A stretch of 64,000 nucleotides of DNA from Candidatus Multivoradales bacterium (GTDB taxonomy: Bacteria > Acidobacteriota > Thermoanaerobaculia > Multivoradales > JAHEKO01): the NCBI GenBank assembly GCA_965223855.1, contig CBDCXM010000009.1:1510206-1574205 (forward strand), in the 5' to 3' direction. The notes beneath the pieces are model-generated. The model worked only from the letters and a program-made list of their open reading frames with translations. It ran no database searches and had not been told where the DNA came from. Of the stretch, positions 23,124 through 45,062 are shown piece after piece. A program made the translations under genes and the position numbers. Every line of letters starts with the position of its first letter. Position 1 is the first letter of the stretch.

Positions 23124-23402
23124 ACCCGCCCTCTCTTCTCCCTCCCCAGCAGGGTTGTCTTGGAGGCCGCCCACATAAGACGATGGAAGGGAGGTCCGGT
23201 CCGTCAAGGCGGTGCCGATGTAACCGGCAGAGCGACCGCGACCTACCTTCAACCTCTCCATAGGGTCGTCTCGAGACCGACCATCTCAGGGCCGTGAGGC
23301 AAGGGCGACCACACCAGGCTCGGCAGGCCTCCAACGACTCCAGCCCGCAGCCGACAGAGCGGCGCCATCCACACAACCACCGGCAAAGCGCCGCGTGCGC
23401 TG

Positions 23403-23470
23403 AGATGGGCGGTCTCGAGATGACCCGGTACCCCGCGTGCCCGGAAATGGGTGGCCTCGATACGACCCGG
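23403..23470. repeat. Imperfect tandem direct repeat (2 x ~27 nt) in the convergent intergenic region
   Basis: gagatgggcggtctcgagatgacccgg / gaaatgggtggcctcgatacgacccgg, separated by about 14 nt. Confidence 0.4.
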
Positions 23471-23476
23471 CCGTCG

Positions 23477-25656: not shown

Positions 25657-26141
25657 TTGTTCTCTTCTCCAGCTTCGTCCCCGCCGGAGTGATCCACCAG
25701 CGCCCGGAAGATCCCCTCGTAGCCGGTGCAGCGACACAGATTCCCCGCTAATGCCTCCTGCACCTGCTCGCGGCTCGGCCGAGCGTCATGCTCCAACATT
25801 GCCCAGGCGGTGACGATGATGCCCGGGGTGCATGCGCCGCACTGCACGCCGCCGGTGGCCACGAAGCGCTCGAGGAACGCGCGCGCCCTTCCCGCAGCAG
25901 GTCCCGAAGCGACCCCCTCGACGGTGGTGATCGTCCGCCCCTCGCACTGCATCAGCGGCACCAGGCAGGAAAGCACCGGCTGCCCGTCGAGGATCACCGT
26001 GCAGGCGCCGCACTCGCCCTCGCCGCAACCCTCCTTGGTACCGATGAGGTCGAACTGGCGGCGCACGACATCGAGCAGCCGCTCCATCGGGTGCCCCTCG
26101 GCGCTGACGGCCTCGCCGTTGAGCTCGAAGCCGACCTTCAT
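25653..26141 (-). CDS. Xanthine dehydrogenase family 2Fe-2S subunit (CoxS-like)
   Basis: 'CGEGECGACTV' and 'CGACTPG...CRCTGY' double [2Fe-2S] signatures. Confidence 0.9.
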   Translation of the reverse strand: MKVGFELNGEAVSAEGHPMERLLDVVRRQFDLIGTKEGCGEGECGACTVILDGQPVLSCLVPLMQCEGRTITTVEGVASGPAAGRARAFLERFVATGGVQCGACTPGIIVTAWAMLEHDARPSREQVQEALAGNLCRCTGYEGIFRALVDHSGGDEAGEENK

Positions 26142-28423
26142 CGCGAACCCTCACGGGCGGCGAGGATCCGCTCCGGCGTCGCCGGGATCTCGTCGAGATG
26201 GACTCCGAGGGCGTTGTCGATCGCCGCCAGCGCCGCCGGGGCGCCGCCGTCCATCGGCAGCTCGCCGACCCCCTTGGCGCCGAACGGGCCGCCCTCCCAG
26301 GGGCGCTCGAGAAGCTCGACCTCGAGCTTCGGCGCGTCCTTGAAAGTGGGGATGATGTAGGTCGCGAGGCGGTCGTTGAGGTAGCGCCCGTCCTCGACCT
26401 TGATCTCCTCCATCAGCCCCCAGGCGACCGCCTGGAGCACCCCGCCCTCGATCTGGCCGGTGCACAGCGTCGGATGGATCGCCTTGCCGACCTCACACAC
26501 CGCCGTCACCTTGTCGGCCCGGACCTCCAGCGTGTCGGGATCGACCTCGATCTCGACGACGTTGGCGCCCCAGGCGTAGGTCGGGTAGGCGCTGCCGCGG
26601 TAGTCCGTCTCGTCGAAGTCCTGATCGGCGGGTGGTTCGTGCCGATGAGTGACCTCGAGGGGGCCGTGCTCGGCGAAGACCTGGCGGGCGATCTCCTTGA
26701 AGGCAACTTCGTCACCGCCAGGCAGCTGAACCTTGCCTTCGGAGACCACCCGGTTCCCGTTCCCCACGTGTCCGTCGGACCCCGACCAGCGCGAGAGCAC
26801 GAGATCCCGCAGCTTCCGGCTAGCCTCGACGAGCGCGCCGCCGACCACCATCGTGGTGCGCGAGGCGACCGTCGGCCCGGAGTCCGGGACCTCCGCCGTA
26901 TCCGGCAGGGCGAAGTCGAGATCTTCGTTCGTGAGCCCTGTGGCCTCCTGTGCCATCTGCGGGAAGATCGCCGCGCACCCCTGGCCCATGTCGGTCATCG
27001 CCGTCTGCAGCTGGAGGCGGCCGTCTTCGAGCAGCCGGGCGCGGACCGGCGAGCGCATCCTCCGCTCGCCGTTGCCGGTGAAGCCGGCGCCGTGGAAGTA
27101 GAGCGCGAGGCCAAGGCCGGGTCGAGGGGCGCCTTCTGGCAGCTCGGCCCGCACGGTCTCGATCTCGCGCCAGCGGCGGCGGTAGTCGGAGCGCTCGACG
27201 GCTCGTTCGAGACAGGCCCGCGCCGAGGTCGTCTCGTCGAGCACCTGACCGGTCGGCAGGGTGTCGCCAGCTTCGAGGGCGTTGCGCAGCCGGAGCTCCA
27301 ACGGGTCGAGGCCGAGGGTGCGGGCGATGCGGTCCATGTGCCGCTCCACCGCGAACATCGTCTGCGGCGCGCCGAAGCCGCGGAAGGCGCCGTTGGTGGC
27401 GGTGTGGGTGCGCAGCGCCCGGCCGGCGATCCGGACCTTCCGGCAACGGTAGGCGCCGGCGGCGTGGAGCAGGGCGCGCGACAGGACGACCGACGACAGC
27501 GTCGGGTAGGCGCCGCCGTCCATCGTCACATCGATGTCCATCGCCACGAGCGTCCCGTCGTCAGCAACCGCCGTGCGATGCCGCACCACCGCCGGATGGC
27601 GCTTGGTGGTGCCGACGATGTCCTCGTGCCGGTCGTAGGCCATCCGCACCGGCCGCCCGGTGGCCTGGGCGAGGATCGCGGCGTGGAGCGCGATCATGCT
27701 CGGATAGTCCTCCTTGCCGCCGAAGCCGCCGCCGACCGCCGACGCCCGCACTCGCACGCGGTCTTCCGGAAGCCCGAAGGCGTGGGTCAGCGACTTGTGG
27801 ACGTAGTAGGGGCACTGCATGGTGCCGACGACGTTCAGCGTCTCCCCCTCGAACCACGCCGTCACCGCCTGGCACTCGATGTAGATGTGCTCCTGGAGGC
27901 CGGTGCGGTAGGTGCCCTCGACGACCCGCTCTGCCGCGGCCAACGCCTGCTCGACCGTCTCGTCCCCGAACTCGAGGGCGCACAGAGGAGGGTGGTCGGC
28001 CGCCTCAGTGACGTCGAGGACCGGTTCGAGCGGCGTGTAGTCGACCTCTACCCGACGCCGGGCCCGCAGCGCCTCCAGCGGCGTGGCGCCGCTGACGAGA
28101 GCCACCGGTTCACCGACGTGGCAGGTCTCCTTCTCGGCGAGGATCGGCCAGTCGTCGGTGATCAGTTTCACGCCGTTCGAGCACGGCAGATCGGCGGCGG
28201 TGACGAAGGCGCTGCCGTCTCCTGCACCCGAGCGGTCGATGCGCACCCCGTCGATCCGCGCGTGCGCGTGCGGGCTGCGCACGGTCGCCCCGAAGAGCAT
28301 CCCGGGCATCGTGAAGTCGTCCGCGTAGCGGACCGCGCCACTCACCTTGCCCATCCCGTCGGGCCGTGGCGGGCTCTGCCCGATACGACCGGGCGCCGCA
28401 CCGCTGGGTCGCTGGCCACTCAT
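26138..28423 (-). CDS. Xanthine dehydrogenase family molybdopterin-binding large subunit (CoxL/XdhA-like)
   Basis: About 760 aa. Aldehyde oxidase/xanthine dehydrogenase a/b hammerhead and MoCo-binding domains ('GGGFGGKE'). Start at the Met of 'MSGQRPSG'. Operon order L-S-M on the minus strand. Confidence 0.9.
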   Translation of the reverse strand: MSGQRPSGAAPGRIGQSPPRPDGMGKVSGAVRYADDFTMPGMLFGATVRSPHAHARIDGVRIDRSGAGDGSAFVTAADLPCSNGVKLITDDWPILAEKETCHVGEPVALVSGATPLEALRARRRVEVDYTPLEPVLDVTEAADHPPLCALEFGDETVEQALAAAERVVEGTYRTGLQEHIYIECQAVTAWFEGETLNVVGTMQCPYYVHKSLTHAFGLPEDRVRVRASAVGGGFGGKEDYPSMIALHAAILAQATGRPVRMAYDRHEDIVGTTKRHPAVVRHRTAVADDGTLVAMDIDVTMDGGAYPTLSSVVLSRALLHAAGAYRCRKVRIAGRALRTHTATNGAFRGFGAPQTMFAVERHMDRIARTLGLDPLELRLRNALEAGDTLPTGQVLDETTSARACLERAVERSDYRRRWREIETVRAELPEGAPRPGLGLALYFHGAGFTGNGERRMRSPVRARLLEDGRLQLQTAMTDMGQGCAAIFPQMAQEATGLTNEDLDFALPDTAEVPDSGPTVASRTTMVVGGALVEASRKLRDLVLSRWSGSDGHVGNGNRVVSEGKVQLPGGDEVAFKEIARQVFAEHGPLEVTHRHEPPADQDFDETDYRGSAYPTYAWGANVVEIEVDPDTLEVRADKVTAVCEVGKAIHPTLCTGQIEGGVLQAVAWGLMEEIKVEDGRYLNDRLATYIIPTFKDAPKLEVELLERPWEGGPFGAKGVGELPMDGGAPAALAAIDNALGVHLDEIPATPERILAAREGSR

Positions 28424-28540
28424 TGAGTGCGAAGCAGTGTGCAGCATGGGCTGGCGCGGCGCAAGCTCGACCGCGAGCGCAGCGCCCGGATACGCAGTAG
28501 ATTCAGTGACATACGGTCTTCCTGAGTAGTCCGTTGAACG

Positions 28541-29389
28541 GTGCAGCGGCGTGAGAAGTTCGGGCTAGACTGGCGACCGATGGACTTCGACTTCCGGGAA
28601 TGGCTCCATCTCCTGACGCGCTGGTTCCACGTCGTCGTCGGGATCATGTGGATCGGCCAGACGTACCTCTTCGGTTGGATGGACAGCAACCTCGAAGAGG
28701 CCGAGGAAGACGACGAGATCGAAGGCCGCCTGTGGATGATCCACAGCGGCGGCTTCTACCGTGTCGAGAAGCAGAAGCTGGCGCCCCGTAAGCTGCCCGC
28801 GGTGCTGCATTGGTTCAAGTGGGAGGCGGGGCTCACGTGGCTCAGCGGCTTCCTGCTGCTGTGGGTCGTCTACTACACCGGCGGCGCGCTTCTCGAGTAC
28901 GGCTCGGAGATGAGTGTCGCCGCAGGCACCGCGATCGGCATCGGCGTCCTCGTCTTCGGCTGGCTCGCCTACGATCTGCTGTGGATGTCACCGCTGGGTC
29001 GCAAGGGTGTCGGCGTGCCGATCTGCTTCGCCGCCGTCGTCGCCCTCGCCTGGGCCCTCACCCAGGTGCTGAGCGGAAGAGCCGCCTTCATCCACATCGG
29101 CGCCCTCTTCGGCACCATCATGGCGGCCAACGTCTTCATGCGCATCCTGCCCGGCCAGCGCCAGCTCGTCGCCGCCGCCGAGGCCGGCACCCCTCCGGAT
29201 GCGACGCTGGCCGAGCGTGCCAAGCAGCGCTCCACCCACAACACCTACATGTCGGTGCCGCTGATCTTCATCATGATCAGCAGCCATTTCCCGACCAGCT
29301 CCTACGGGAGCAAGTACAACTGGGTGATGCTGGGGGTGTTCGTGCTGCTGGGGTGGGCGGGGCGGAAGGTGATGACGCTTCTGCGGTAG
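28541..29389 (+). CDS. Polytopic membrane protein; candidate DUF989/PuuD-like (membrane urate hydroxylase family) N-terminal domain
   Basis: 282 aa. The N-terminal 'EWLHLLTRWFHVVVGIMWIGQTYLFGWMD' resembles the conserved start of COG3748/DUF989 proteins, as recalled from memory. Divergent from the xdh operon. Confidence 0.4.
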   Translation: MQRREKFGLDWRPMDFDFREWLHLLTRWFHVVVGIMWIGQTYLFGWMDSNLEEAEEDDEIEGRLWMIHSGGFYRVEKQKLAPRKLPAVLHWFKWEAGLTWLSGFLLLWVVYYTGGALLEYGSEMSVAAGTAIGIGVLVFGWLAYDLLWMSPLGRKGVGVPICFAAVVALAWALTQVLSGRAAFIHIGALFGTIMAANVFMRILPGQRQLVAAAEAGTPPDATLAERAKQRSTHNTYMSVPLIFIMISSHFPTSSYGSKYNWVMLGVFVLLGWAGRKVMTLLR

Positions 29390-30496: not shown

Positions 30497-30622
30497 ATGC
30501 GCGTGTCCATCAGGCAACGAAACACTTACACCCCGGCCTCGACGGCCGGGCATGGCCTTTTGGCGTTCGATTCAGCGAATCGGTACACGCCGATCGCGCC
30601 CTTGAAGAGGGAAACCAGCTAG
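30497..30622 (+). CDS. Tiny ORF (41 aa) MRVSIRQRNTYTPASTAGHGLLAFDSANRYTPIAPLKRETS, with strong SD
   Basis: GAGGAG (30484-30489) lies 7 nt before the ATG. Sits between the consensus promoter and an intrinsic terminator. Not in the ORF track (<60 aa). Confidence 0.35.
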   Translation: MRVSIRQRNTYTPASTAGHGLLAFDSANRYTPIAPLKRETS

Positions 30623-30654
30623 AACCGACACTCGCAGATCCAAAGACTGAGTCG

Positions 30655-30687
30655 AGCCTTCTGGGACCTCCCAGAAGGCTTTTTTTG
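30655..30687 (+). terminator. Rho-independent terminator
   Basis: 11-bp perfect stem agccttctggg/cccagaaggct, 4-nt loop, followed by TTTTTTT. Confidence 0.8.
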
Positions 30688-30824
30688 TGCTGAGGATCGA
30701 AGTGAATGAGAGAAGTGAAACCGACAAACTGATACCACCGGGCCGGCGGTGTGCGAACCTCACGTGATCGTGATCGGTGCCGCACATTCCGTGCAACGGG
30801 TTCTGACGAAGGTGGGTCGGGCCT

Positions 30825-30888
30825 GGAGGCGTGGCATAGGTAGCCAGACCCCTCGAGGGTCGTGCGGGTTCGAGTCCCGCCGTCTCCC
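30825..30888 (+). other. Truncated tRNA-like element (64 nt)
   Basis: 7-bp acceptor pairing ggaggcg/cgtctcc, a canonical T-arm gcggg-ttcgagt-cccgc and a D-like tggc-ataggta-gcca. It is about 9 nt too short for a tRNA, and I could not assign an anticodon arm. The centre is the palindrome ccctcgaggg. Confidence 0.35.
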
Positions 30889-30891
30889 AAG

Positions 30892-30964
30892 AACTGGCTA
30901 GCTCAGACTGGTAGAGCACCGAGCCGTAACTCGGGTGTCGGGGGTTCGAATCCCCCGCCAGGAC
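30892..30964 (+). tRNA. tRNA (probably Thr, anticodon CGU) with atypical anticodon loop as read
   Basis: Canonical D-arm gctc-agactggta-gagc and T-arm ggggg-ttcgaat-ccccc. Acceptor 3' strand gccagga. Perfect anticodon stem ccgag/ctcgg encloses only 6 nt (ccgtaa), consistent with a 1-nt deletion. Two mismatches at the acceptor terminus. Confidence 0.55.
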
Positions 30965-31450
30965 CTCTGTCAAGGGTCTCTTCAGTGCCGACCGAGCCGG
31001 GAGCCTGCTGCGGAACCGCTGCCGAAGCCGGACGCGTCGAGCGCTTGCCCCTTCCACTGGGGCGTTTGCCCGGCGAGCCGGCGGAGGAGCGCGCAACGGC
31101 GCCTTGCAGTGCCGCGAGCAGCCCGAGGCGACGCCTCTGTTCCGCCCTACGTTCGACCGGCCGCCCATCGGGCGGCCACCGGGCGGTGGGCCGAAAGGGG
31201 TCTCCCTCGGGCTCGGGCGGCACTCCGCTACCGGGCGCGTGGCGGTAGCCGCGGGTGGGCTCCCGGCGAGGTCATTTCTCGCCGCGTTCGCCCAGCAGTC
31301 CGAGCCGGTGTTCATGTTGAACGTTTGACGTCGCCGCAGAGGCGGTGGCGTTCGCCCGGCGAGCGAGGGAGCTGACGTCGCCCTCGGTCTCGGGCCCGTA
31401 GTGAAGCAGCAGTAGCAAGTGTCAGTGCAGTAAGAGAGGAGGTAACAACC

Positions 31451-32551
31451 ATGTTCCGTTGGATCAAGATTCGTGAGTACGAGCGCGGTCTCCTGTACCG
31501 AGACCGGGTGTTCCGGGAGTGCCTGAAGCCGGGGCGCCACTGGATCTTCGATCCGTTCCTGAAGGCGCGGGTCGAGCGGGTTTCGGTGCGCGACGTCTTC
31601 CTCGAGTCGAGCGACCTGGACGTGATCGTCCGCAGTGGGTCGCTCGGCGAAGAGGCGGTCGTGCTCGATCTCGAGGACCACGAGCGCGCGCTGGTCTGGG
31701 TGAACGGTCGTTTCTCGACTGTCCTGCGCCGTGGCCTGTGGGCGGTCTGGACCGTCTTCCACGAGGTCCGTACCGAGGTGATCGACGCCCGCAAGGTGCG
31801 TTTCGACCACCCGGCGCTCGCCGCCGTGCTGGCCGAGGAGAGCTCGCTGCGTCATCTGGACCCGGTGCAGGTCGAGTCGGGCTCGGTGGGCCTGGTGATG
31901 GTGAACGGCCGTCACGAGGCGACGCTCGAGCCGGGCCGCTATGCCCTGTGGAAGGACGTCGCGCGAGTGGGTGTCACGCACGTGAGTCTGCGAGAGCAGG
32001 CGATCGACGTCGCCGGTCAGGAGATCATGACCGCCGACAAGGTCACCCTGCGGCTCAACGCCGTCGTCGTCTTCCGGGTCGTCGATCCGGTGCAGGCGGT
32101 GACGTCGGTCGAGTCGTACGAGCAGGCTCTCTACCGTGAGGCTCAGCTGGCGCTGCGTCGAGTGATCGGCGCTCGCGAGCTCGACGAGCTCCTGTCCGAG
32201 AAGGACGAGGTGGCCGGCGAGCTCGAGGAGCTGGTCCGGCGCCGTGCCGGTGAGCTGGGCCTCCAGGTCGGCTCGCTCGGCATTCGCGACGTCATCCTGC
32301 CGGGTGACATGAAGGCGATCCTCAACCGGGTGACCGAGGCTCAGAAGGCTGCCGAGGCCGACCTCATCACCCGTCGCGAGGAGACCGCCTCCATGCGTTC
32401 GCAGGCCAACACCGCCCGAATCTTCGACTCGAACCCCGCGCTGATGCGTCTGCGTGAACTCGAGGTTCTCGAGAAGGTGGCGGACAAGGCCGATCTCACG
32501 GTGGTGCTGGGCGAGGGTGGCCTCGCCGAGAGAGTCACCAAGCTGCTGTGA
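31451..32551 (+). CDS. SPFH/Band-7 domain protein
   Basis: 366 aa. Strong RBS gagaggagg. SPFH core followed by a coiled-coil (AEADLITRREETASMRSQANTARIF). Confidence 0.75.
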   Translation: MFRWIKIREYERGLLYRDRVFRECLKPGRHWIFDPFLKARVERVSVRDVFLESSDLDVIVRSGSLGEEAVVLDLEDHERALVWVNGRFSTVLRRGLWAVWTVFHEVRTEVIDARKVRFDHPALAAVLAEESSLRHLDPVQVESGSVGLVMVNGRHEATLEPGRYALWKDVARVGVTHVSLREQAIDVAGQEIMTADKVTLRLNAVVVFRVVDPVQAVTSVESYEQALYREAQLALRRVIGARELDELLSEKDEVAGELEELVRRRAGELGLQVGSLGIRDVILPGDMKAILNRVTEAQKAAEADLITRREETASMRSQANTARIFDSNPALMRLRELEVLEKVADKADLTVVLGEGGLAERVTKLL

Positions 32552-35210: not shown

Positions 35211-35960
35211 ATGAAGCGAACACTCGTGTGGCAGCGAAGGGCAGCAGGGATCCTCTACCGGGCAGGTCTGTGGATGGTCACCGTCGTGGGTCTAACGGCT
35301 ATGCCGGCATCGGCGTCGTGTCCGGGAGCGGGCGTCTACGAGATCTTCAGAGTCGACCGCACCCTGGAGAACACACATCTGGTTCTCGACGCGTTCGAAA
35401 GCAAGAACGGCCGGGCGGTGGTCCTGAGAAGCCGCCAGCACGACGACACTCAGCTCTGGATCCTGAAGTTTACGAACTACCTCCTATACGTGGACGACAA
35501 GGGCGCCACGACCGGCCGTGGACCCGGGTGGGGGTGCACGCTTCGACAGAAGAGTCGAGTCGTCCACGAGAGAGAGGACGGCTACCTCGACAGCGTCCGC
35601 AGGTTCCCCCTGCCGGCCGGCTATGCGCGGACGAGGCTCGTCACCCGGCAACGCGATCGGAGATGGCCGGGTCGAGCGAATGGGTCCGGGTCCGGCGACC
35701 CCGACACGTTCGAGAAACTCTGGGTGGACTCGAGCCAGGTGTGGGACTTCACGCCGGTCATGGTCGATGGAAAGCTAGAGTTCCTCTACATCGACGGCTG
35801 CCTCGCCGTCGTCTACACGATCCGGCAACGAAGAGACTACGGGTACCTGGATGTCGCCGGCGATGGGGACAGCCAGGAGAAGCTTCTCGAGGGGCAGGTC
35901 ATCACGCGACCGTTCGACCTTGGAGGTCGATGGGCGATGAAGCGCGAGGATTGCAAGTAG
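35211..35960 (+). CDS. Secreted hypothetical protein, possible ricin-B-like (beta-trefoil) fold
   Basis: RBS aaaggagg precedes ATG 35211. Signal peptide. QxW-like 'DTQLWILKF' and 'SQVWDF'. Upstream part of the tracked ORF judged non-coding. Confidence 0.45.
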   Translation: MKRTLVWQRRAAGILYRAGLWMVTVVGLTAMPASASCPGAGVYEIFRVDRTLENTHLVLDAFESKNGRAVVLRSRQHDDTQLWILKFTNYLLYVDDKGATTGRGPGWGCTLRQKSRVVHEREDGYLDSVRRFPLPAGYARTRLVTRQRDRRWPGRANGSGSGDPDTFEKLWVDSSQVWDFTPVMVDGKLEFLYIDGCLAVVYTIRQRRDYGYLDVAGDGDSQEKLLEGQVITRPFDLGGRWAMKREDCK

Positions 35961-36061
35961 AGCCCCGAGGGGACTTTCGCTCACGGCTGAGCCGCCAGGG
36001 AAGCACGCCGCGGCGGCGGCGGTTGAAGAGGTCGAGACCTCGACCACCAGGGAGCCTGCCG

Positions 36062-36604
36062 ATGAGAACCGCCACCCGCCCTGCCCTCGCCCTTGCCTTC
36101 GTTGCTGTTGCGGCCCCACTGCTCCTGGGCGCGGAAAGCAGCCCCGCCATCGACTTCGACGGCTTCCTCGACGACTCGCAAGCCGCGCGCGAGCTGCGGG
36201 ACCGGAGGATCGTCGATCTCGACCGCTTCAAGGCGCTCGCCGCCGAAGGAGCCGTCATCCTCGACACCAGGAGCCGTGCCGCCTTCGAGCGCCGCCACCT
36301 TTCCGGCGCCGCACACCTGAACTTCTCCGACATCACGGCCGACACCCTGCGGCGGATCATCGGATCTCGCGACCAGACCGTGCTGATCTACTGCAACAAC
36401 AACTTCGAGCTCGACGAAGAGGCGTTCCCCCGGAAGATCGAAGAGGCCGCACTCAACATTCCGACCTTCATTGCCCTCTACAGCTACGGATACCGCAACG
36501 TCTACGAGTTGGGTGGCCTGTTTCGGGTGGATGACCCGAGACTGGAGTTCGGCGGTAGTCGCGATGGAAGTTCAGAGGACCGCCCCTCGGCACCCTCTGG
36601 CTAG
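36062..36604 (+). CDS. Secreted rhodanese-like domain protein
   Basis: Signal peptide MRTATRPALALAFVAVAAPLLLGA. Rhodanese layout with active-site loop 'YCNNNFE'. Confidence 0.7.
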   Translation: MRTATRPALALAFVAVAAPLLLGAESSPAIDFDGFLDDSQAARELRDRRIVDLDRFKALAAEGAVILDTRSRAAFERRHLSGAAHLNFSDITADTLRRIIGSRDQTVLIYCNNNFELDEEAFPRKIEEAALNIPTFIALYSYGYRNVYELGGLFRVDDPRLEFGGSRDGSSEDRPSAPSG

Positions 36605-36672
36605 GGCCGGCTCAGGCCTTCGCGGTGTCGAGCCGGATCAGCGCTTCGGGTGCGAGATCCGGGACCCCGCGA

Positions 36673-37896
36673 TCAGCCCGGCGGCAGCAGCTCGAGCACC
36701 TCCGCCCGCAGCGCCTCGAACATGTCCTCCATCACTCCCGAGTGGTAGCGCGCCAGCGTGCCGTCGGGAGCGATGACGACGGTGCTCGGCAGGCCGGGGG
36801 AGTGCAGCGCCCGAAAGAACGAGCCGTCGACGTCGAGCGCCACTGGGATCTCGAGCTCTCGGCCGGCGAGGAACTTCGTGACCGCAGCGCTCTGCTCCTC
36901 CATGCCATCGAAGGTCTCGAGAGTGCTGACTGCGTAGACTTCGATCGGGTGGCCGCTCGTCTCGACCCAGGCAGCGAGCTGCTCGATCTCCTCGAGAGCC
37001 GACCAGCAAGGCACGCACCAGGTGGCCCAGAAGTCGAGCACCACGACCGAGCCGCGCAGGTCGGCGAGCTCGACGGCCTCACCGCCGAGGGTGGCGACTC
37101 GGGCTTCCGGGGCGCTGGTACCCAGCGGGTAGGCGCTCGCTTCGAGGGCGGCGAAGTCGGCGACCGCGGTTCGATCGCCGGGGTCGAACGACAGCCTGGC
37201 GGCCAGGTTGGCGGGATCACCTTGCTCGAACACGCCGCTGCCGCTCACCTGATGGCCTTCGGCGCCGACGGTGAGAGCGAAGGCGAGCAGTTCGTGAGTC
37301 TCGGTGTCGAAGGACACGCGAAGGCTGCCGTTGTCGGCCGTCAGCGTGACGGCTCGCGCGACGCGGCCGTCGAGGCTGTCTTCCTCGACCGCCGTCGGCT
37401 CGAGCGGTCCCAGAATGCCGAAACCGAGAGCATCGACGAACGCCTCGCGGCTGCCGGTGACCGCTGCGGCAAGGGGCGGTGCCGGCTTGAGCCCGACCTG
37501 ATCGGCGCCGATCGCCACCAACCCGCTCGCGAAGTCACCTGTCAGCGGAGCCGACACGTAGGAACGCGCCACGTTGAACTGTGTCGCGTACATGCGACCG
37601 CCGGTGGCGACGACGCGCATCAGCGCGGTGCCGGAAGCATCGACCATCGCCATGTACGCGTCGGCGCCGTCGCGACCGTACTCGATCGCCTTCTTCTCGG
37701 TCCGCCCGTCGGGCAGGGTCACCTCGAAGCGCATGGTGCCGGCGAAACGCTGCGCCGTGGAGTACGCCGCGACCGCGTCGGCGAGGACTGTTTCCGCGTC
37801 GGGCGCCCCGGCGCCGTCGGCGCGGACACTGTCGATCGTCAGGACGGCTCCCGCCAGCCCGAGCGAGAGGGCGAGCACTGCCTTCGTGCGTCTCAT
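36673..37896 (-). CDS. TlpA-like thiol-disulfide oxidoreductase with N-terminal extra domain
   Basis: Signal peptide. C-terminal thioredoxin fold with 'WATWCVPC' CxxC motif. Confidence 0.8.
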   Translation of the reverse strand: MRRTKAVLALSLGLAGAVLTIDSVRADGAGAPDAETVLADAVAAYSTAQRFAGTMRFEVTLPDGRTEKKAIEYGRDGADAYMAMVDASGTALMRVVATGGRMYATQFNVARSYVSAPLTGDFASGLVAIGADQVGLKPAPPLAAAVTGSREAFVDALGFGILGPLEPTAVEEDSLDGRVARAVTLTADNGSLRVSFDTETHELLAFALTVGAEGHQVSGSGVFEQGDPANLAARLSFDPGDRTAVADFAALEASAYPLGTSAPEARVATLGGEAVELADLRGSVVVLDFWATWCVPCWSALEEIEQLAAWVETSGHPIEVYAVSTLETFDGMEEQSAAVTKFLAGRELEIPVALDVDGSFFRALHSPGLPSTVVIAPDGTLARYHSGVMEDMFEALRAEVLELLPPG

Positions 37897-37977
37897 ACCT
37901 ATCGAGACGCACCTGTGGCGAGAAGGTTCCCTGTCCGCGCTTCAGTTGGCCTGCCGGCTCTCGAGTTTCGTCGACAC

Positions 37978-40383
37978 CTAGCGTCTGCGGCTCTTGAGGG
38001 CGCTGCACGCCGGTCGGCTCCCTCCGTCGCACGCCTTGCGAAACCATCTGCGTGCCTCGGAAGGGCTCTTGCCGACGCCGCCTTCGCCCTTCTCGTACAT
38101 CTTGCCGAGCCAGTAGCAGCCGTGGGGCGAGCCGCCGTTGCAGCCGCGTCGGAACAACTGCAAGGCCCTGGCGGGGTCCTTTCTCACCCCATCGCCGTTG
38201 CGGTAGGCGCCTCCCAGATTCGCGCAGCCCGTGGCGTGGCCCTTGGTGCACCCTTGCTGGAAGAGGCTCGCGGCCTGGCTTCGACTCTCGGGCACCCCCT
38301 CTCCTTTGTGGTAGTGAATACCGAGCCAGGTGCAGCCGCGGCCGTCTCCTCCATTGCAGCCGCGACGATAGAGTTCCGCCGCTCTCTCGTAGCTCTTTCG
38401 GACGCCGGTACCGTTGCGGTACATCAGTGCCAGGTCCGTACAGCTCTCCGGGGCGCCAGCCTCGCAGCCCTGCCGGTGTCGGTCGAGGTCTCTCGAGATG
38501 CGCTCCGCGTTGGCCAGCTCTCTGCAGCCGCGAGCGTCGCCTCCGTCGCAGGCCTGCCGAAGGAAGTCCACCGACCGCTCGTGGCTCCAGGTCACGCCAT
38601 CGCCCTCGCGGTACCGGAGCCCGAGGCTCGTGCAGGCGTCGGGCTTCCCTTCCGCGCACTCCTCTCGCTGCCTCGCGGCCTCCTGCATGGCGGCCAGCTT
38701 TGCGCAGCCGTCGTCGTATCCTCCGTCGCAGACCCGCCGGTAGAGCTCTTTCGCCGCTGCCTCGCTCGGTTCTACGCCGCGGCCCTGCTCGTATCGGTTT
38801 CCGAGGTTGAGGCAGGCCAGGGGGTCTCCCCGATCGCACGCCTGGCGGAACAGATCGAGCGCCTTCGAGTCGCTCTGCGCCACGCCCTCGCCCGCCTCGT
38901 ACAGGGCCGCCAGGTGGGAACAGGCCGGCGAGCTGCCTGCCTCGCAGGCCGACTGAAAGAGTTCCGCTGCCTTCACATCGTCCTCCGGCACGCCCCTGCC
39001 CTGCTCGTGCAGCATTCCCAGGTGGGTGCACCCGAGGGGGTCTCCGCCGTCGCAGCCGCGTTTCAGCATCGCCGCAGCCTTGGACAGGTTGCGGCTGTGC
39101 AGCTCGGCGAGATCGATTCCGATCCTCGAGCAACCCTCTGCGTCGCCGCCCTCGCACCCCCTCCCATAGAACTCGGTCGCCTTCGACCGATCCTGCAATA
39201 CGCCCTGGCCCTCCTCGTGCAGGACACCGAGCTTCGTGCAGCCGAGGCCGCTGCCTCCGTCGCACGCTCTTCGGTAAGACTCTGCCGCTCGCGCGTAGCT
39301 CTGCGCCAGACCCACTCCCCCCTCGTAACGAAGCCCGACTTCGGAGCACGCGAGGGGGGCGCCGCCGTCGCAGGCGTCCACAAGCTGCGCGGCCTCTTCC
39401 GCTTCGCCGGCGACGTCCGCCATGCCGGGACTCGCCATGGGGAGTTCGGGAGACGTCGGCATCGCCGCCTTCGGCGAGTCGTACGCCGGTGCGAGGACCG
39501 GCACCTCCGGTTTCGGCGGGAGCCGGAAGACGAAGTCGCCTTCGTCGAGGTCCGGATCCCGGATCGTGCCTCTCTGCGGCGTTTGTCCGACCTCGTAGTC
39601 CACGACCTCGTCGTGAAGATAGGAGCCCAGCTCGGTTCCCGTGACGAAGCCGTCCTCGTTGTAGTCGGCTGCCCCCTCGAGGCCGCGGACGAAGAGCGGG
39701 GTGAAGACGCTCTTGGCCGGAACCGTCTCGTCGTCGCGGCCGGCAGTGATGAACTGCCGTACGGGTAGGAGAGTCTTGGCGGTAATGTGTCGCGGTTCCT
39801 GGTCGCCCTTGACCTTGAAGAGGGTGCCGGCGAAACAACTGTCGAAGACGAACAGCACGTGTTTCGACTCGATCTCGGCGGCGAGCTTCATGACGGATTC
39901 CATGCTGACCGCCATCCTCTTGAACTTTCTCCTCTCGACGGCCGGCAGTGGTGCGTCGGCCGGCACGATGTAGCCGCGCTTGCCGCGTCGCCCGAGGTTC
40001 TCGGAGTGACCGTGACCGGAGTAGAAGATCAGAAGCTGGTGATCGGGAGCGTCGTAGCCGTAGTCATCGACGAAGCCCTCGAGCGCGGCGCTGAGCTCCC
40101 GGCTGTCGGGATTGCGGATGCGGCGTACTTCGAAGCCCAGCTCGGTGAGAGTCGCCTCGACCTGGTCGAGCTCGCTCTGCACCGTTGAGAGCGGGTCCCA
40201 ACCCGACGTGTAGTCGCCGACGCCGATGACCAGCGCATACTTCCCGGTGTAGAGCGGAGCCGGAGCCGGCACGGCCTCGACCAGCATCGAGCCCTTCTCC
40301 TGAGCGAGGGCCTGTGAGCAGACACACGCCGCCAACAGGGCGCCCGCAAGCAATGACGCGCCATTCGATCGTCGTTCGAACAT
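37978..40383 (-). CDS. Secreted caspase-like (peptidase C14) domain fused to about 12 cysteine-bearing Sel1-like repeats
   Basis: Signal peptide MFERRSNGASLLAGALLAACVCSQALA. Caspase His/Cys dyad contexts 'LIFYSGHGHS' and 'FVFDSCFAG'. C-terminal tandem 'AAELYRRGCDGGDxxGCxxLGxxYxxGxGV' Sel1/Hcp-like repeats. Confidence 0.75.
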   Translation of the reverse strand: MFERRSNGASLLAGALLAACVCSQALAQEKGSMLVEAVPAPAPLYTGKYALVIGVGDYTSGWDPLSTVQSELDQVEATLTELGFEVRRIRNPDSRELSAALEGFVDDYGYDAPDHQLLIFYSGHGHSENLGRRGKRGYIVPADAPLPAVERRKFKRMAVSMESVMKLAAEIESKHVLFVFDSCFAGTLFKVKGDQEPRHITAKTLLPVRQFITAGRDDETVPAKSVFTPLFVRGLEGAADYNEDGFVTGTELGSYLHDEVVDYEVGQTPQRGTIRDPDLDEGDFVFRLPPKPEVPVLAPAYDSPKAAMPTSPELPMASPGMADVAGEAEEAAQLVDACDGGAPLACSEVGLRYEGGVGLAQSYARAAESYRRACDGGSGLGCTKLGVLHEEGQGVLQDRSKATEFYGRGCEGGDAEGCSRIGIDLAELHSRNLSKAAAMLKRGCDGGDPLGCTHLGMLHEQGRGVPEDDVKAAELFQSACEAGSSPACSHLAALYEAGEGVAQSDSKALDLFRQACDRGDPLACLNLGNRYEQGRGVEPSEAAAKELYRRVCDGGYDDGCAKLAAMQEAARQREECAEGKPDACTSLGLRYREGDGVTWSHERSVDFLRQACDGGDARGCRELANAERISRDLDRHRQGCEAGAPESCTDLALMYRNGTGVRKSYERAAELYRRGCNGGDGRGCTWLGIHYHKGEGVPESRSQAASLFQQGCTKGHATGCANLGGAYRNGDGVRKDPARALQLFRRGCNGGSPHGCYWLGKMYEKGEGGVGKSPSEARRWFRKACDGGSRPACSALKSRRR

Positions 40384-40635
40384 CGGTGGCCTCCAGCAGA
40401 CTGAACGGAAGCACGATTCGTCGCGGGCCATCACCCGCGGCGCTCTGAAGAGGGGTTGGACCGCCATTGTAAGGCGGTCCAACCCGAGCCGGCTATGCGA
40501 GCCGGCCATGCGAGAGCCTCGAACTGCGTCGTGGAACTCTCCGACCCGGCAGTAGCCGCAGCTGAGCCGGCGGACGGGTAGAGCGGGTCGGTGACTCCCG
40601 AAGAGGAGCGTCCGGCCGGAAGGGCTTCTCGGGAG

Positions 40636-41031
40636 TCAGCCGGTTCGGCTGTCGCCGGCGAGAACACCGGAGAACGACTTGCGGTAGACCCGCGCCAGGT
40701 AGATCCCCAGGACCAGCGACACGATCGGCAGCAGCAAGCCGTCGGGCGTCGGCGCGAGAAAGACATGGAACAGGAAGATGTTCAAGACCACGGGAGCGAG
40801 AACGACGAGCGCGAGCGGCACCCAGCGGCCGATCAGGAGGAGCACGCCGCAGACCACCTCTGTCGCCTTGATCAGCGGCAGCATGTAGCCGGTCGCGGCC
40901 AGAGCGCCCATGAAGGAACCCGCAGCCTCCGGCATCGGCGGCACCGGGATGAAATTGAAGAAGCCGTTGAGGCCGAAGACGGTGAAGATGAGGCCGAGCA
41001 GCACTCGGGCGATCAGGGGAGCCTTGTTCAC
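40636..41031 (-). CDS. DoxX-family membrane protein
   Basis: 131 aa, 4 TM helices, DoxX-like. Confidence 0.65.
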   Translation of the reverse strand: MNKAPLIARVLLGLIFTVFGLNGFFNFIPVPPMPEAAGSFMGALAATGYMLPLIKATEVVCGVLLLIGRWVPLALVVLAPVVLNIFLFHVFLAPTPDGLLLPIVSLVLGIYLARVYRKSFSGVLAGDSRTG

Positions 41032-42395: not shown

Positions 42396-42569
42396 CGGTA
42401 GGGATCGGGCGGTGGGAGCCTATCAACGCGAGCTGCGGCTCGGGCCACAGGGTCCGGGTGCTACTGTTTGCCAAACAGACAACAATCGAAACGAGCCTGG
42501 GTGGGCCGGGCGTGGAAGAGGTGCCCGGCTCGTGGTCCAGGGCTCGTGGTCCAGGACGGGGAGTCAGCC

Positions 42570-45062
42570 ATGTCGAGAGCGATGTTCAGGCCATTTCTGA
42601 CGGGTTTCGCGATGCTTCTGGTAGCGGGTCTGGCGATGGGTGCGACCCTCACGGTCGACAGCGATACCGATGACGGAACCGGGTGCACGCTGCGGGAGGC
42701 GGTGGCGTCGGCGAACGGAGACTCCGCCGTGGGAGGGTGCGCGGCAGGAAGCGGCTCCGACACGATCGTCTTCGACGGCTCCCTGGCCGGCTCGACGATC
42801 ACGCTGACCTCGAACGACGACACGTCCTTCGGCCCGTCCGCTCTCGAGGTCTCGAGCAACGTGACGATCGAAGGCCCCGACGATGGCCCGGGCATCACGA
42901 TCACCAGGAGTGGGCCGGGGCGGCTGATCTATGTCACCGGTGGTGGAGATCTGACGGTGCGCGATCTCACCCTGACCGGCGGCACCGCGACCGGCTTCGA
43001 CGGCGGCCCTCGCTCCCGCGGTGGCGGCGGTGGCGGCGGCGCCGGGATGGGTGGTGCGATCTTCAACGAAGGTGAGGTCCACCTCGTGCGCTCGACTCTG
43101 AGCGGCAACACGGCGGTGGGGGGCGAGGGGGGTGCGGAACGCGAGTTCAACCAGCCGCCGGACGGCAGCTTCGGCGGTGGTGGTGCCGGAGTGGCGGGAG
43201 ATGGCGCCTTCGGCGGCGACTCGCCGGGCGCGGGCGGCGCGGGTGGCGGTGGTACGGGCGGCAGCGGTGGTGAGGACTGCACCGACGGCTTCGGCGGTTC
43301 GTTCGGCTCCGGTGGTGGCGGCGGCGGCGCTGACACCAATGGCGACCCGGGCTGCGACGGCGGCACCGGCGGACTCGGCGGCGGTGGTGGTGGCGGCGGC
43401 TCCGGCGCGCTCGGCAAGGGCTCGGGTGGCGGCGGCGGCTTCGGTGGCGGGGCCGGAGGCGATGGAGGCGTGGAGTCCATCATCCCCGGCGGCGCGGGCG
43501 GCGGCGGTGCCGGCCTCGGGGGAGCGATCTTCAATCACGACGGCCTGGTCACCGTGACCAACAGCACCCTCTCGGGCAATTCCGCCGTGGGCGGTCCCGG
43601 CGGCACAGCCGTGATCGGCTCCGGCGGCGGTGAGGACGGCCAGGGGCTCGGCGCGGCGATCTTCAACTACAGCGGGATGCTGTTCATCCTCAACTCGACG
43701 CTCTACGACAACGACGTGGACGGCTCCCCGGGCAGCGAGGGAGCGGTGGTCAGCCGCGGCGACGGTGGGGCGGCCAACGATCTGATCGACAACTCCATCC
43801 TCGCCGGCACCCGGGACGGCGGTGCGGTGGTCGCCGACTACGTCTCCAGCACCAACGCCGGCTTCGGCGGCACGAACAACTACATCGAGACCACTTCGGC
43901 CGGATTCCCGAACCCGGTGACACCGGCGACGGAGGGGATCGGCGGCCTGGCCGACAACGGAGGCCCGACTTTCACCCACGAGTTGACGGCGGCCAGCGAC
44001 CTGATCGACCAGGGCGACGTTGCGGTGGCCGGCGGGTTGACGACCGACCAGCGCGGCTACATCCCGCGGGACACGGGCGGCATTCCGGACGTCGGCGCCT
44101 ACGAGTTCGGCGCCAGCCCGCCCAACTCACCGCCGGTCGCGGACGCCGGGCCCGACCAGACGGTCGAGTGCTCGGCGCCGATGGGCGGCACCGAGGTCAC
44201 CCTCGACGGGAGCGGCTCGAGCGACCCCGACGACGATCCGTTGACCTACACCTGGACGGGGCCGTTCCCACAGGGCGGCGGCACGGTGACCGGCGTGATG
44301 CCCGTGGTGACGCTGCCGCTGGGCGTCCACGTCATCACGCTCGAGGTCGACGACGGCAACGGCGAGCAGGACACCGACACGGTACAGATCACCGTGGAGG
44401 ACACCACGCCGCCGGACATCACTCTCAACGGCGACAACCCGATGGTGCTCGAGTGCGCTATCGACAGCTATGACGAGCCGGGGGCGGTGGTCACCGACAT
44501 CTGCGACGACGACCCGATGCTCGACATCACCGGCACGGTCGACACGGCGACGCCGGGCACCTACCCGATCACCTACACGGCGACCGACGCCAGCAGCAAC
44601 ATGGCACAGGAGATCCGCGACGTCTTCGTGGTCGACACCACGCCGCCGGTGATCACCGTGCTGCCGAGCCCCATCGTGCTCTGGCCGCCAAATCACAAGT
44701 ACGTCGGCGTCAGTGTGGCGGACATCGTCACCTCGGTCGTCGATCTGTGTGACACCGGGGTCGGCATCGGCGACGTGGTCGTCACTTCGGTGTCGAGCGA
44801 CGAGGTGGAGAACGGCAAGGGCGACGGCAACACGCTCAACGACATCGTGATCGCCGACGACTGCCGCTCAGTCAATCTTCGCTCGGAGCGGAGCGGCAGA
44901 TCCAACGGACGGGTCTACACCATCCACCTCGCGGCCACAGACGCCGACGGCAACACGGGGACGGCTTCGTTCCAGGTGCAGGTCCCGCACAGCCTGGGGA
45001 GTGGCCCGGCGGTGGATGACGGGCCGGTCTACACGGAAGTGAGTGCCTGCGGGGGCGCGTAG
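42570..45062 (+). CDS. Secreted choice-of-anchor-Q domain protein with Gly-rich region and C-terminal Ig-like (DUF5011/HYR-like) domains
   Basis: N-terminal 'LTVDSDTDDGTGCTLREAVASANGD' and 'PDVGAYEF' motifs of the choice-of-anchor Q family. Long G-rich low-complexity stretch. Two 'PPVITLNGDNPM...' Ig-like modules. Confidence 0.7.
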   Translation: MSRAMFRPFLTGFAMLLVAGLAMGATLTVDSDTDDGTGCTLREAVASANGDSAVGGCAAGSGSDTIVFDGSLAGSTITLTSNDDTSFGPSALEVSSNVTIEGPDDGPGITITRSGPGRLIYVTGGGDLTVRDLTLTGGTATGFDGGPRSRGGGGGGGAGMGGAIFNEGEVHLVRSTLSGNTAVGGEGGAEREFNQPPDGSFGGGGAGVAGDGAFGGDSPGAGGAGGGGTGGSGGEDCTDGFGGSFGSGGGGGGADTNGDPGCDGGTGGLGGGGGGGGSGALGKGSGGGGGFGGGAGGDGGVESIIPGGAGGGGAGLGGAIFNHDGLVTVTNSTLSGNSAVGGPGGTAVIGSGGGEDGQGLGAAIFNYSGMLFILNSTLYDNDVDGSPGSEGAVVSRGDGGAANDLIDNSILAGTRDGGAVVADYVSSTNAGFGGTNNYIETTSAGFPNPVTPATEGIGGLADNGGPTFTHELTAASDLIDQGDVAVAGGLTTDQRGYIPRDTGGIPDVGAYEFGASPPNSPPVADAGPDQTVECSAPMGGTEVTLDGSGSSDPDDDPLTYTWTGPFPQGGGTVTGVMPVVTLPLGVHVITLEVDDGNGEQDTDTVQITVEDTTPPDITLNGDNPMVLECAIDSYDEPGAVVTDICDDDPMLDITGTVDTATPGTYPITYTATDASSNMAQEIRDVFVVDTTPPVITVLPSPIVLWPPNHKYVGVSVADIVTSVVDLCDTGVGIGDVVVTSVSSDEVENGKGDGNTLNDIVIADDCRSVNLRSERSGRSNGRVYTIHLAATDADGNTGTASFQVQVPHSLGSGPAVDDGPVYTEVSACGGA

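What the first reader, a model, noticed from the sequence alone, without database searches (positions are those of the whole stretch)
37978..40383. Secreted caspase-like peptidase fused to a dozen Cys-containing Sel1 repeats
An orthocaspase (C14) catalytic module with an intact His/Cys dyad context is followed by about 12 Sel1-like repeats, each with a conserved Cys pair (Hcp-type). The protein has a cleavable signal peptide. Prokaryotic caspase homologs are usually cytoplasmic or membrane-associated signalling proteins. A periplasmic/secreted caspase with a disulfide-stabilised solenoid is an unusual architecture. It may act on host or competitor proteins.
Basis: partly seen in the sequence, partly recalled or inferred. 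Interest (0 to 1): 0.6.

Follow-up and report, generated by a model that had tools for sequence, protein, structure and literature searches.

The report
Exported caspase-like protease with Sel1 repeats
This gene really does encode an exported caspase-fold cysteine protease joined to 14 cysteine-stapled Sel1 repeats, but it is one more member of a very large, already catalogued, biochemically unstudied bacterial family, so it is not a new kind of protein.

Summary
Window 37978-40383 (- strand) encodes an 801-aa protein with four parts:
- an N-terminal signal peptide;
- a caspase-fold (Peptidase_C14) domain, residues ~45-290;
- a ~45-60 residue Pro/Ala-rich linker predicted with low confidence;
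- 14 CX7C units with the 36-residue Sel1 period, rather than about 12. Their Cys columns align with the Cys pairs of Helicobacter HcpC.

The claim that the architecture is unusual does not hold.
- The caspase domain belongs to a family with 2,147 cluster representatives at E<=1e-30.
- About 93% of sampled members carry a signal-peptide-like N-terminus.
- Their C-terminal modules are interchangeable: DUF1566, PEGA, FGE-sulfatase, TPR, thioredoxin-like, Sel1.
- Several relatives already combine signal peptide, C14 and CX7C-Sel1 repeats.
- Published surveys list Sel1 among the commonest partners of prokaryotic caspase homologs and note signal-peptide-bearing forms.

There is no conserved gene neighbourhood, no secretion or defence context, and no sign of host association; the source is probably an environmental Acidobacteriota genome.

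Most likely function: an extracytoplasmic, possibly lipid-anchored, Arg/Lys-directed cysteine protease. The solenoid would bind a partner or substrate. The substrate is unknown.

The parts
37978..40383 (-). Complete coding sequence, 801 codons plus stop, of the signal peptide / C14 / linker / Sel1 protein
   Evidence: ORF and translation; Pfam C14 and Sel1; identical to database protein P0121 except for the annotated start.
40390..40394 (-). Shine-Dalgarno-like GGAGG, 6 nt upstream of the ATG at 40383
   Evidence: Read directly from the sequence.
40303..40383 (-). Signal peptide, residues 1-27 (MFERRSNGASLLAGALLAACVCSQALA). It has an A-x-A site before Q28 and an alternative lipobox LAAC at residues 17-20.
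   Evidence: Sequence. Modelled as a lone helix, residues 8-26. Homologs align here with hydrophobic N-termini and a conserved A-x-A / (K/R)-G motif. K30 is K/R in 66 of 73 sequences and G31 is G in 60 of 73; both lie upstream of the database start M33.
39514..40251 (-). Caspase-fold (Peptidase_C14, paracaspase-like) catalytic domain, residues 45-290
40012..40014 (-). Codon of the catalytic His124 (motif SGHG)
   Evidence: Invariant in 111/111 homologs. Aligned to MALT1 H415. Codon checked.
39835..39837 (-). Codon of the catalytic Cys183 (motif FDSCFAG). D181, two residues before it, is at 39841-39843.
   Evidence: C183 and D181 are invariant in 111/111. They align with MALT1 C464 and D462. 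C183 is the only Cys of the mature caspase domain here and in 77 of 111 homologs.
39373..39513 (-). Pro/Ala/Glu-rich linker, residues 291-337, predicted with low confidence and read as flexible
   Evidence: 9 Pro and 11 Ala in a 48-residue stretch (290-337) that covers this linker. pLDDT is below 50 for residues 297-357 in the full-length model, and pTM is 0.54.
37981..39372 (-). Array of 14 CX7C Sel1-like (Hcp-type) units, residues 338-801, with short units at 552-575 and 612-639
   Evidence: Repeat table. Pfam Sel1, 232.8 bits. PDB sequence hits to Sel1 proteins, HcpC (1ouv, E 4e-38) and HcpB (1klx); over the C-terminal 165 residues searched, query Cys align to HcpC Cys. Helix-turn-helix pairs are modelled at high pLDDT for 358-556 and 579-801. 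There is no DNA-level tandem repeat, so the repeats are old.

Best explanation
The gene encodes an extracytoplasmic cysteine endopeptidase of the caspase (C14) fold. It is either soluble in the periplasm or lipid-anchored.

Proposed steps, all inferred from sequence:
1. The Sec system exports the protein. Signal peptidase I cleaves after Ala27, or signal peptidase II cleaves before Cys20.
2. The caspase domain uses the His124/Cys183 dyad. Glu71 and Asp181 align with two of MALT1's S1 residues, and Glu219 lies in the following loop. These acidic residues would favour cleavage after Arg or Lys, as in paracaspases and metacaspases.
3. A flexible Pro/Ala-rich linker joins the catalytic domain to a long alpha/alpha solenoid of 14 Sel1-like units.
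4. Each unit is probably stapled by a disulfide across its helix-turn-helix junction, as in Helicobacter HcpB and HcpC. This is only feasible in an oxidising compartment.
5. The solenoid would act as the binding module. It would recruit a protein or peptide partner, or position the protease on an envelope component.

Relatives carry the same exported catalytic module with other C-terminal binding domains, which fits this reading. The physiological substrate is unknown.

Shown here: domain identities, the fold, conservation and alignment of the catalytic residues, the Cys-pair register, and the fact that a signal peptide is typical of the family. Inferred: export route, catalytic activity, P1 preference, disulfide formation, and the role of the solenoid.
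For: Fold and catalytic residues:
- Pfam C14 and Sel1 hits.
- Confident caspase-domain model, pLDDT 90.7.
- The family profile hits only MALT1 among PDB sequences, E 5.7e-14.
- hhalign places H124, D181, C183 and E71 on MALT1 H415, D462, C464 and D365.
- H124, D181 and C183 are invariant in 111/111. E71 is E or D in 111/111. E219 is E or Q.

Export:
- GGAGG precedes the upstream ATG.
- The signal peptide and the (K/R)-G motif upstream of the database start M33 are conserved.
- 255 of 274 relatives have a signal-peptide-like N-terminus.
- The catalytic Cys is the only Cys in the mature caspase domain.
- All 28 C-terminal Cys lie in CX7C pairs. In the C-terminal 165 residues compared, they align with HcpC Cys pairs.
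- Disulfide-bridged Sel1 repeats are reported for Hcp proteins and for COA7 of the mitochondrial intermembrane space (PMC8892353).

Modular design:
- C-terminal domains vary across relatives.
- The paralog P0027, listed with the same longest-contig length (3,226,005 bp), carries an F5/8 type C domain instead of Sel1.
- The linker is predicted with low confidence and pTM is 0.54.
Against: - No member of this exported family has, to my knowledge, been assayed, so activity and specificity rest on homology.
- SignalP and LipoP could not be run, and the public gene call (P0121) starts at M33 without a signal peptide. M33 also has a GGAG 9 nt upstream.
Cys-Cys distances and S1-pocket geometry were therefore not measured.
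- The first CX7C unit (338-357) and the segment 559-578 are modelled with low confidence.
- No conserved neighbour points to a substrate.
Confidence: 0.62

Rival explanations
1. It is a lipoprotein. Signal peptidase II cleaves before Cys20, which is then acylated. The protease and solenoid are tethered to the inner or outer membrane facing the periplasm or the cell surface. This changes the location, not the chemistry, of the main explanation.
For: Residues 17-20 (L-A-A-C) match the lipobox pattern [LVI][ASTVI][GAS]C at a typical distance from the N-terminus. Residues 28-39 following it are predicted with low confidence and could serve as a tether.
Against: Only 3 of the 120 homologs listed have a lipobox-like motif. 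The family consensus is an A-x-A site followed by Q-T-(K/R)-G, and the window protein also has it (ALA|QEKG). No predictor was run.
Confidence: 0.3
2. One reading: it is a secreted effector that attacks host or competitor proteins.
For: A review proposes that signal-peptide-bearing bacterial meta- and paracaspases of endosymbiotic or parasitic alphaproteobacteria are secreted into hosts (PMC3417536). Many Sel1-repeat proteins of pathogens act at the host interface (own knowledge).
Against: - No secretion-system, toxin/immunity or mobile-element genes lie nearby. The neighbours are a TlpA-like redoxin, DoxX, a PQQ-type propeller, a rhodanese and a purine-catabolism cluster.
- There are no PADLOC hits beyond a weak generic caspase match.
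- The named relatives of a neighbouring gene are environmental Thermoanaerobaculia/Acidobacteriota.
- Family members come from SAR324, Desulfobacterales, Verrucomicrobia and Nitrospinota metagenome-assembled genomes, not from specialised symbionts.
Confidence: 0.1
3. It is a cytoplasmic protein that starts at M33, as in the public annotation, with reduced cysteines. It would be a conventional intracellular orthocaspase involved in signalling or cell death.
For: Database protein P0121 is called from M33 (769 aa). A GGAG lies 9 nt upstream of that ATG.
Against: - Conservation extends upstream of M33: the A-x-A site, K30 and G31.
- 93% of relatives have signal-peptide-like N-termini, and most exceptions are truncated calls or sit just below the threshold.
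- The upstream ATG has a better-spaced GGAGG.
- 28 cysteines in a strict CX7C register aligned to disulfide-forming Hcp cysteines would be hard to explain in the cytoplasm.
- There is no NACHT, TIR or other conflict-system partner nearby, and the EACC1-type caspase model scores 48 bits against a cutoff of 140.
Confidence: 0.06
4. It is a non-proteolytic scaffold or a transpeptidase. The caspase-fold domain would bind or ligate rather than hydrolyse, as in legumain-type ligases and the GPI transamidase of the same clan.
Against: These matches are clearly weaker than those to MALT1, caspases and metacaspases. The dyad and the acidic residue two positions before the Cys are invariant, as in hydrolytic C14B enzymes.
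Confidence: 0.07

Closest known systems
Prokaryotic caspase homologs (orthocaspases / bacterial metacaspases, MEROPS C14B) fused to Sel1 repeats, e.g. Rhodobacter sphaeroides YP_355001.1 (Bac_PepC14 27-298 followed by multiple Sel1 repeats), catalogued by Asplund-Samuelsson et al. 2012
   Same: N-terminal C14 domain with the His-Cys dyad followed by a C-terminal Sel1 array. Sel1 is listed in 6.0% (40 of 671) of prokaryotic metacaspases, and N-terminal helices were interpreted as probable signal peptides.
   Different: The published catalogue does not describe Cys-pair (Hcp-type) repeats. I could not check whether those examples have them. The window protein has 14 such units and belongs to a subfamily whose profile is closest to MALT1.
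Human MALT1 paracaspase, caspase domain (PDB 3v4o and others)
   Different: MALT1 is cytosolic, has death and Ig domains, and is activated in the CBM complex (own knowledge). The window protein has a signal peptide and Sel1 repeats and none of those domains. Identity is only about 20%.
Helicobacter cysteine-rich proteins HcpB and HcpC (PDB 1klx, 1ouv)
   Same: They share 36-residue Sel1-like units. In the C-terminal 165 residues compared, the query Cys columns align with the HcpC Cys pairs. HcpC matches at E 4.4e-38 and HcpB at 1.3e-13. 1ouv is deposited as a secreted protein.
   Different: Hcp proteins are short, stand-alone repeat proteins. Here 14 units are fused to a protease.
Uncharacterised database relatives with the same architecture: P0122 (745 aa, 8 CX7C pairs), P0125 (714 aa, 10), P0015 (553 aa, 6), P0131 (594 aa, 4), and locus L028
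   Same: Signal peptide, caspase domain and CX7C-Sel1 array. P0122 is 39% identical over 89% of the query.
   Different: They have fewer repeats. All come from metagenomes, none is characterised, and their gene neighbourhoods are unrelated.
Secreted clan-CD cysteine proteases such as gingipains (C25) and clostripain-like C11 enzymes
   Different: They belong to different families within the clan, use different accessory domains and secretion routes, and show much lower structural similarity than the C14 enzymes.

Membership tests
Peptidase family C14 (Pfam PF00656, caspase domain) | Sequence match above the curated Pfam threshold | tested here: met
   58.8 bits against a cutoff of 21.4, E 8.1e-16, residues 48-194.
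Peptidase family C14 (Pfam PF00656, caspase domain) | Caspase-hemoglobinase fold | tested here: met
Peptidase family C14 (Pfam PF00656, caspase domain) | Catalytic His and Cys at the canonical positions, after strands beta3 and beta4 | tested here: met
   H124 follows strand 115-122 and C183 follows strand 175-181 in the model. They align to MALT1 H415 and C464 and are invariant in 111/111 homologs.
Peptidase family C14 (Pfam PF00656, caspase domain) | Peptidase activity | not testable with these tools
   Needs an enzyme assay.
C14B-type (metacaspase / paracaspase / orthocaspase) basic-P1 specificity | Acidic S1-pocket residues, including an Asp two residues before the catalytic Cys | tested here: inconclusive
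   D181 (invariant) aligns with MALT1 D462, and E71 (E or D in 111/111) aligns with D365. The counterpart of the third residue, MALT1 E500, was not aligned; E219 is only a candidate.
Paracaspase (MALT1-type) proper | Death domain and Ig-like domains flanking the caspase domain | tested here: not met
   Only C14 and Sel1 are detected. The N-terminus is a signal peptide and the C-terminus is a Sel1 array. The resemblance is confined to the catalytic domain.
EACC1-associated caspase (NCBIfam NF047832) | Score above the curated cutoff | tested here: not met
   48.1 bits against a cutoff of 140. There are no conflict-system neighbours.
Sel1-like repeat family (Pfam PF08238) | Repeated matches above the curated threshold | tested here: met
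   232.8 bits against a cutoff of 30.7, with 9 scoring stretches. Strong hits to solved Sel1-repeat proteins.
Hcp-type (disulfide-bridged) Sel1 repeats | One Cys pair per repeat, CX7C, recurring every ~36 residues, in register with the Hcp cysteines | tested here: met
   14 CX7C pairs, 10 of them in 36-37-aa units. Over the C-terminal 165 residues searched, the Cys columns align with those of HcpC 1ouv.
Hcp-type (disulfide-bridged) Sel1 repeats | Disulfide bonds actually formed | not testable with these tools
   Needs mass spectrometry or a structure.
Sec-exported protein | N-terminal signal peptide with n, h and c regions and a cleavage site | tested here: inconclusive
   The pattern is present by inspection and conserved in the family. 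No dedicated predictor was available, and both a signal peptidase I site (ALA|Q) and a lipobox (LAA|C) are possible.
MerG / AlgK / ExoR / MotX (NCBIfam partial hits) | Score above the curated cutoff | tested here: not met
   27.3-50.9 bits against cutoffs of 330-700. These are generic Sel1/TPR-repeat matches.

The most novel reading that the evidence does not exclude
The signal-peptide-bearing caspase family to which this protein belongs has at least 2,147 cluster representatives. It may be an unrecognised extracytoplasmic proteolytic system that is the closest bacterial relative of animal paracaspases. In that case its interchangeable C-terminal modules, here a 14-disulfide Sel1 solenoid, would each direct the same Arg/Lys-specific protease to a different envelope or foreign target. 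A thiol-redox partner would keep the lone catalytic Cys reduced in the oxidising periplasm. Candidates for that partner are the TlpA-like gene 81 bp downstream here and the thioredoxin-like domain fused in some relatives.
Probability: 0.15. Interest if true: 0.5.

Novelty: new member of a known kind. Interest (0 to 1): 0.27.

Why it matters
The practical value is modest.
- It corrects a public gene start. The database version begins at M33 and loses the signal peptide.
- It documents a clean, repeat-rich example of an abundant family of exported bacterial caspase-like proteases that nobody appears to have assayed.
- The family's catalytic domain is closest, among solved structures, to human MALT1.

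Biochemical work on any member would show what caspase-fold enzymes do outside the bacterial cytoplasm. It might also inform the bacterial origin of paracaspases proposed by Aravind and Koonin. The particular fusion seen here does not open a new question by itself.

Tried and rejected
1. phmmer of the caspase half alone against PDB sequences found nothing relevant. A family profile was needed.
2. Exact look-ups of the window protein, of P0121 and of the neighbouring PQQ protein found no contig on record. Cluster look-up gave no names.
3. The genome-contig scan did not recover the source genome. It returned only relatives of 30-56% identity.
4. Functional link to neighbours (TlpA-like redoxin, DoxX, rhodanese, PQQ propeller):
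 - tblastn against 63 loci carrying homologs found none of the redox neighbours next to a caspase gene.
 - P0015 and P0131 have unrelated contexts.
 - The two relatives with 77-79% identical xanthine dehydrogenase lack the gene on the covered flank of the purine operon.
 - The linkage is therefore rejected as unsupported.
 - Five relatives are fused to a CxxC thioredoxin-like domain, but that domain shows no detectable similarity to the window's TlpA-like protein. This is kept only as a weak lead.
5. Defence-system membership: PADLOC gave only a weak generic caspase hit, E 1.1e-7. Rejected.
6. Recent repeat expansion: Tandem Repeats Finder found no 108-nt period.
7. The promoter/terminator scan found nothing in 36500-40800, so the operon structure is undetermined.
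8. A fold search against AFDB50 was unavailable.
9. A literature search for 'bacterial paracaspase' returned no papers.
Full report
**The gene**

The region holds one long ORF on the - strand, 37978-40509.
- GGAGG lies at 40394-40390, 6 nt upstream of it. The ATG at 40509 has no such site.
- The product is 801 aa.
- Third-position GC of the maximal ORF (37978-40509) is 0.82, typical of real genes in this 68%-GC window.
- The same protein is in the public collection as P0121. There it is called from M33 (769 aa), which removes the signal peptide.
- Conservation in homologs extends upstream of M33. It covers an A-x-A site followed by Q/T-(K/R)-G, with K30 being K/R in 66 of 73 sequences and G31 being G in 60 of 73. 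The longer form is therefore the real one.

**The domains**

- Pfam gives Peptidase_C14 (E 8.1e-16, residues 48-194) and Sel1 (E 5.9e-71, 9 scoring stretches).
- NCBIfam gives only sub-threshold matches: EACC1-type caspase at 48 bits against a cutoff of 140, and MerG, AlgK, ExoR and MotX through their Sel1/TPR repeats.
- An AF2 model of residues 29-300, built with 110 homologs, is confident (pLDDT 90.7, pTM 0.88).
- Foldseek against the PDB puts MALT1 paracaspase first (E 6.7e-13). It is followed by Geobacter GSU0716, metacaspases and caspase-9.
- A profile of the family hits only MALT1 among all PDB sequences, E 5.7e-14.

**The catalytic residues**

- hhalign against the MALT1 caspase domain places H124, D181, C183 and E71 on MALT1 H415, D462, C464 and D365. 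The first 105 residues of the MALT1 sequence used were confirmed. The rest, and the MALT1 residue numbering, come from memory.
- H124, D181, C183, G123, G125, G186 and R209 are invariant in 111 of 111 homologs. E71 is always E or D. E219 is E or Q. K190 and K192, just after the catalytic Cys, are K/R in 99 and 108 of 111.
The catalytic module looks intact, and an acidic S1 pocket with a preference for basic P1 residues is plausible.

**The repeats**

- All 28 cysteines of residues 338-801 fall in 14 CX7C pairs.
- Ten units are 36-37 aa, one is 34 aa, two are truncated (24 and 28 aa), and the last is a 17-aa cap.
- This half of the protein matches solved Sel1-repeat proteins strongly. The C-terminal 165 residues were compared residue by residue. 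There the query cysteines align with the Cys pairs of Helicobacter HcpC (1ouv, E 4.4e-38), and HcpB (1klx) also matches.
- The full-length AF2 model (pLDDT 84.9, pTM 0.54) shows helix-turn-helix pairs at high confidence for 358-556 and 579-801. Each CX7C pair spans the turn between two helices. Confidence is low for 297-357 and 559-578.
- There is no DNA-level tandem repeat, so the array is old.
- Disulfide-bridged Sel1 repeats are described as unusual within the Sel1 family. They are reported for Hcp proteins and for COA7, which sits in the mitochondrial intermembrane space (PMC8892353). This fits an exported protein.
- The mature caspase domain contains a single Cys, the catalytic one, as in 77 of 111 relatives. 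This also fits life in an oxidising compartment, though that is an inference.

**The signal peptide**

The sequence MFERRSNGASLLAGALLAACVCSQALA|QEKG has n, h and c regions and an A-x-A site. It also contains a lipobox, L-A-A-C20. Only 3 of the 120 relatives listed show a lipobox-like motif there. I therefore favour signal peptidase I but cannot exclude a lipoprotein. No predictor was available.

**How unusual the architecture is**

It is not unusual.
- The caspase domain finds 15,354 representatives of 50%-identity clusters at E<=1e-3 and 2,147 at E<=1e-30.
- The best matches are about 50-58% identical. They come from metagenome-assembled genomes of SAR324, Desulfobacterales, Verrucomicrobia, Lentisphaerae, Aminicenantes and Nitrospinota.
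- 255 of 274 sampled members have a hydrophobic, signal-peptide-like N-terminus. Most exceptions are truncated calls or sit just below the threshold.
- The C-terminal region varies from member to member: DUF1566, PEGA, FGE-sulfatase, TPR, GUN4, thioredoxin-like, WD40 or Sel1.
- Signal peptide + C14 + CX7C-Sel1 proteins exist already: P0122 (8 pairs; 39% identity over 89% of the query), P0125 (10), P0015 (6) and P0131 (4), plus L028, a further full-length C14-Sel1 relative.
- Long CX7C-Sel1 arrays of 10-15 units also occur fused to Ser/Thr kinases (for example in Minicystis rosea) and to a TIR domain.

The literature agrees.
- Asplund-Samuelsson et al. 2012 found Sel1 in 6.0% (40 of 671) of prokaryotic metacaspases. 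They interpreted N-terminal helices as likely signal peptides and discussed extracellular localisation. Their tables include R. sphaeroides YP_355001.1, with Bac_PepC14 followed by multiple Sel1 repeats.
- Coggill and Bateman 2012 describe a signal-peptide-bearing Bradyrhizobium caspase.
- A 2012 review from the Aravind group states that bacterial meta- and paracaspases with signal peptides had been noted since 2002.

**Genomic context**

- The neighbours are a rhodanese (+ strand), a 407-aa TlpA-like redoxin with a WCVPC motif 81 bp downstream on the same strand, DoxX, a PQQ-type beta-propeller, and a PKD/Ig surface protein.
- Further away lie a purine-catabolism cluster, KatG, amidohydrolases and ExbB.
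- None of the redox neighbours is found next to caspase homologs in 63 fetched loci.
- Two relatives with the same architecture have unrelated contexts.
- Two genomes with 77-79% identical xanthine dehydrogenase keep the purine operon but lack this gene on the covered flank.
- PADLOC finds no defence system. No promoter or terminator consensus was found.
- Named relatives of the xanthine dehydrogenase are Thermoanaerobaculia/Acidobacteriota at 64-66% identity. The source is therefore probably an environmental Acidobacteriota genome.
- Nothing supports a host- or competitor-directed role.

**Mechanism and verdict**

The best-supported reading is as follows.
- The protein is exported by Sec and may be lipid-anchored.
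- It is a caspase-fold cysteine protease with a probable preference for Arg or Lys at P1.
- A flexible linker tethers it to a disulfide-stapled Sel1 solenoid that binds a partner or substrate.
- The family's pattern of one constant exported catalytic module and interchangeable C-terminal binding modules supports this reading.
- Activity, specificity, disulfide formation and the target are all inferred.

The protein is a new member of a known, catalogued kind. Interest is low to moderate, and it rests mainly on the fact that the whole exported, MALT1-like bacterial family remains biochemically uncharacterised.

Noticed in passing
window 36673-37896 (-), with 35900-36604 (+) and 40636-41031 (-): A 407-aa exported TlpA-like redoxin sits 81 bp downstream of the caspase gene on the same strand. 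It has a WCVPC motif, and Pfam assigns nothing to its first ~250 residues. A rhodanese and a DoxX protein flank the pair. Five family members (P0035, P0053, P0058, P0076, P0099) carry a CxxC thioredoxin-like domain fused to the caspase domain. This could hint at a redox partner for the lone catalytic Cys, but synteny is not conserved and the two thioredoxin-fold domains show no detectable similarity.
   Followed up: partly
window 40287 versus 40383 (- strand start codons): The public database version of this protein (P0121, 769 aa) starts at M33 and so lacks the signal peptide. Family conservation upstream of M33 and the GGAGG before the ATG at 40383 indicate a mis-called start.
   Followed up: yes
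P0027, not in this window (its longest contig has the same length, 3,226,005 bp, as that of P0121): A probable paralog with a signal peptide, a caspase domain 56% identical to this one, and an F5/8 type C (discoidin) domain in place of Sel1 repeats. It shows module swapping, apparently within one genome.
   Followed up: partly
P0128, P0129, P0133 (Minicystis rosea), P0138: CX7C-Sel1 arrays of 10-15 units, up to 41% identical to this one, are fused to Ser/Thr protein kinases and, in one case, to a TIR domain. The disulfide-type solenoid is therefore a mobile module shared with sensor-like proteins.
   Followed up: partly
window 21253-29389: A purine-catabolism cluster: an allantoicase-OHCU decarboxylase fusion, DUF6986, the FAD and molybdopterin subunits of a xanthine dehydrogenase, and a membrane Urate_ox_N-type urate oxidase. 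The cluster is conserved in related genomes (L064).
   Followed up: partly
window 42468-45062 (+): An 864-aa protein with a long Gly-rich central region followed by PKD and bacterial Ig-like domains. It is probably a surface protein.
   Followed up: no
window 30892-30965 (+): ARAGORN reports a 'tRNA-???' with a two-base anticodon. It lies inside the span of a long ORF on the opposite strand (30572-31981, -) and is probably a false positive.
   Followed up: no
window 31451-32551 (+), 57120-58217 (-), 51628-52371 (-), 60938-62272 (-): Two SPFH/Band 7 genes, a Bax1-inhibitor-family membrane protein and an S8 subtilase lie in the same window. No link to the caspase gene was seen.
   Followed up: no
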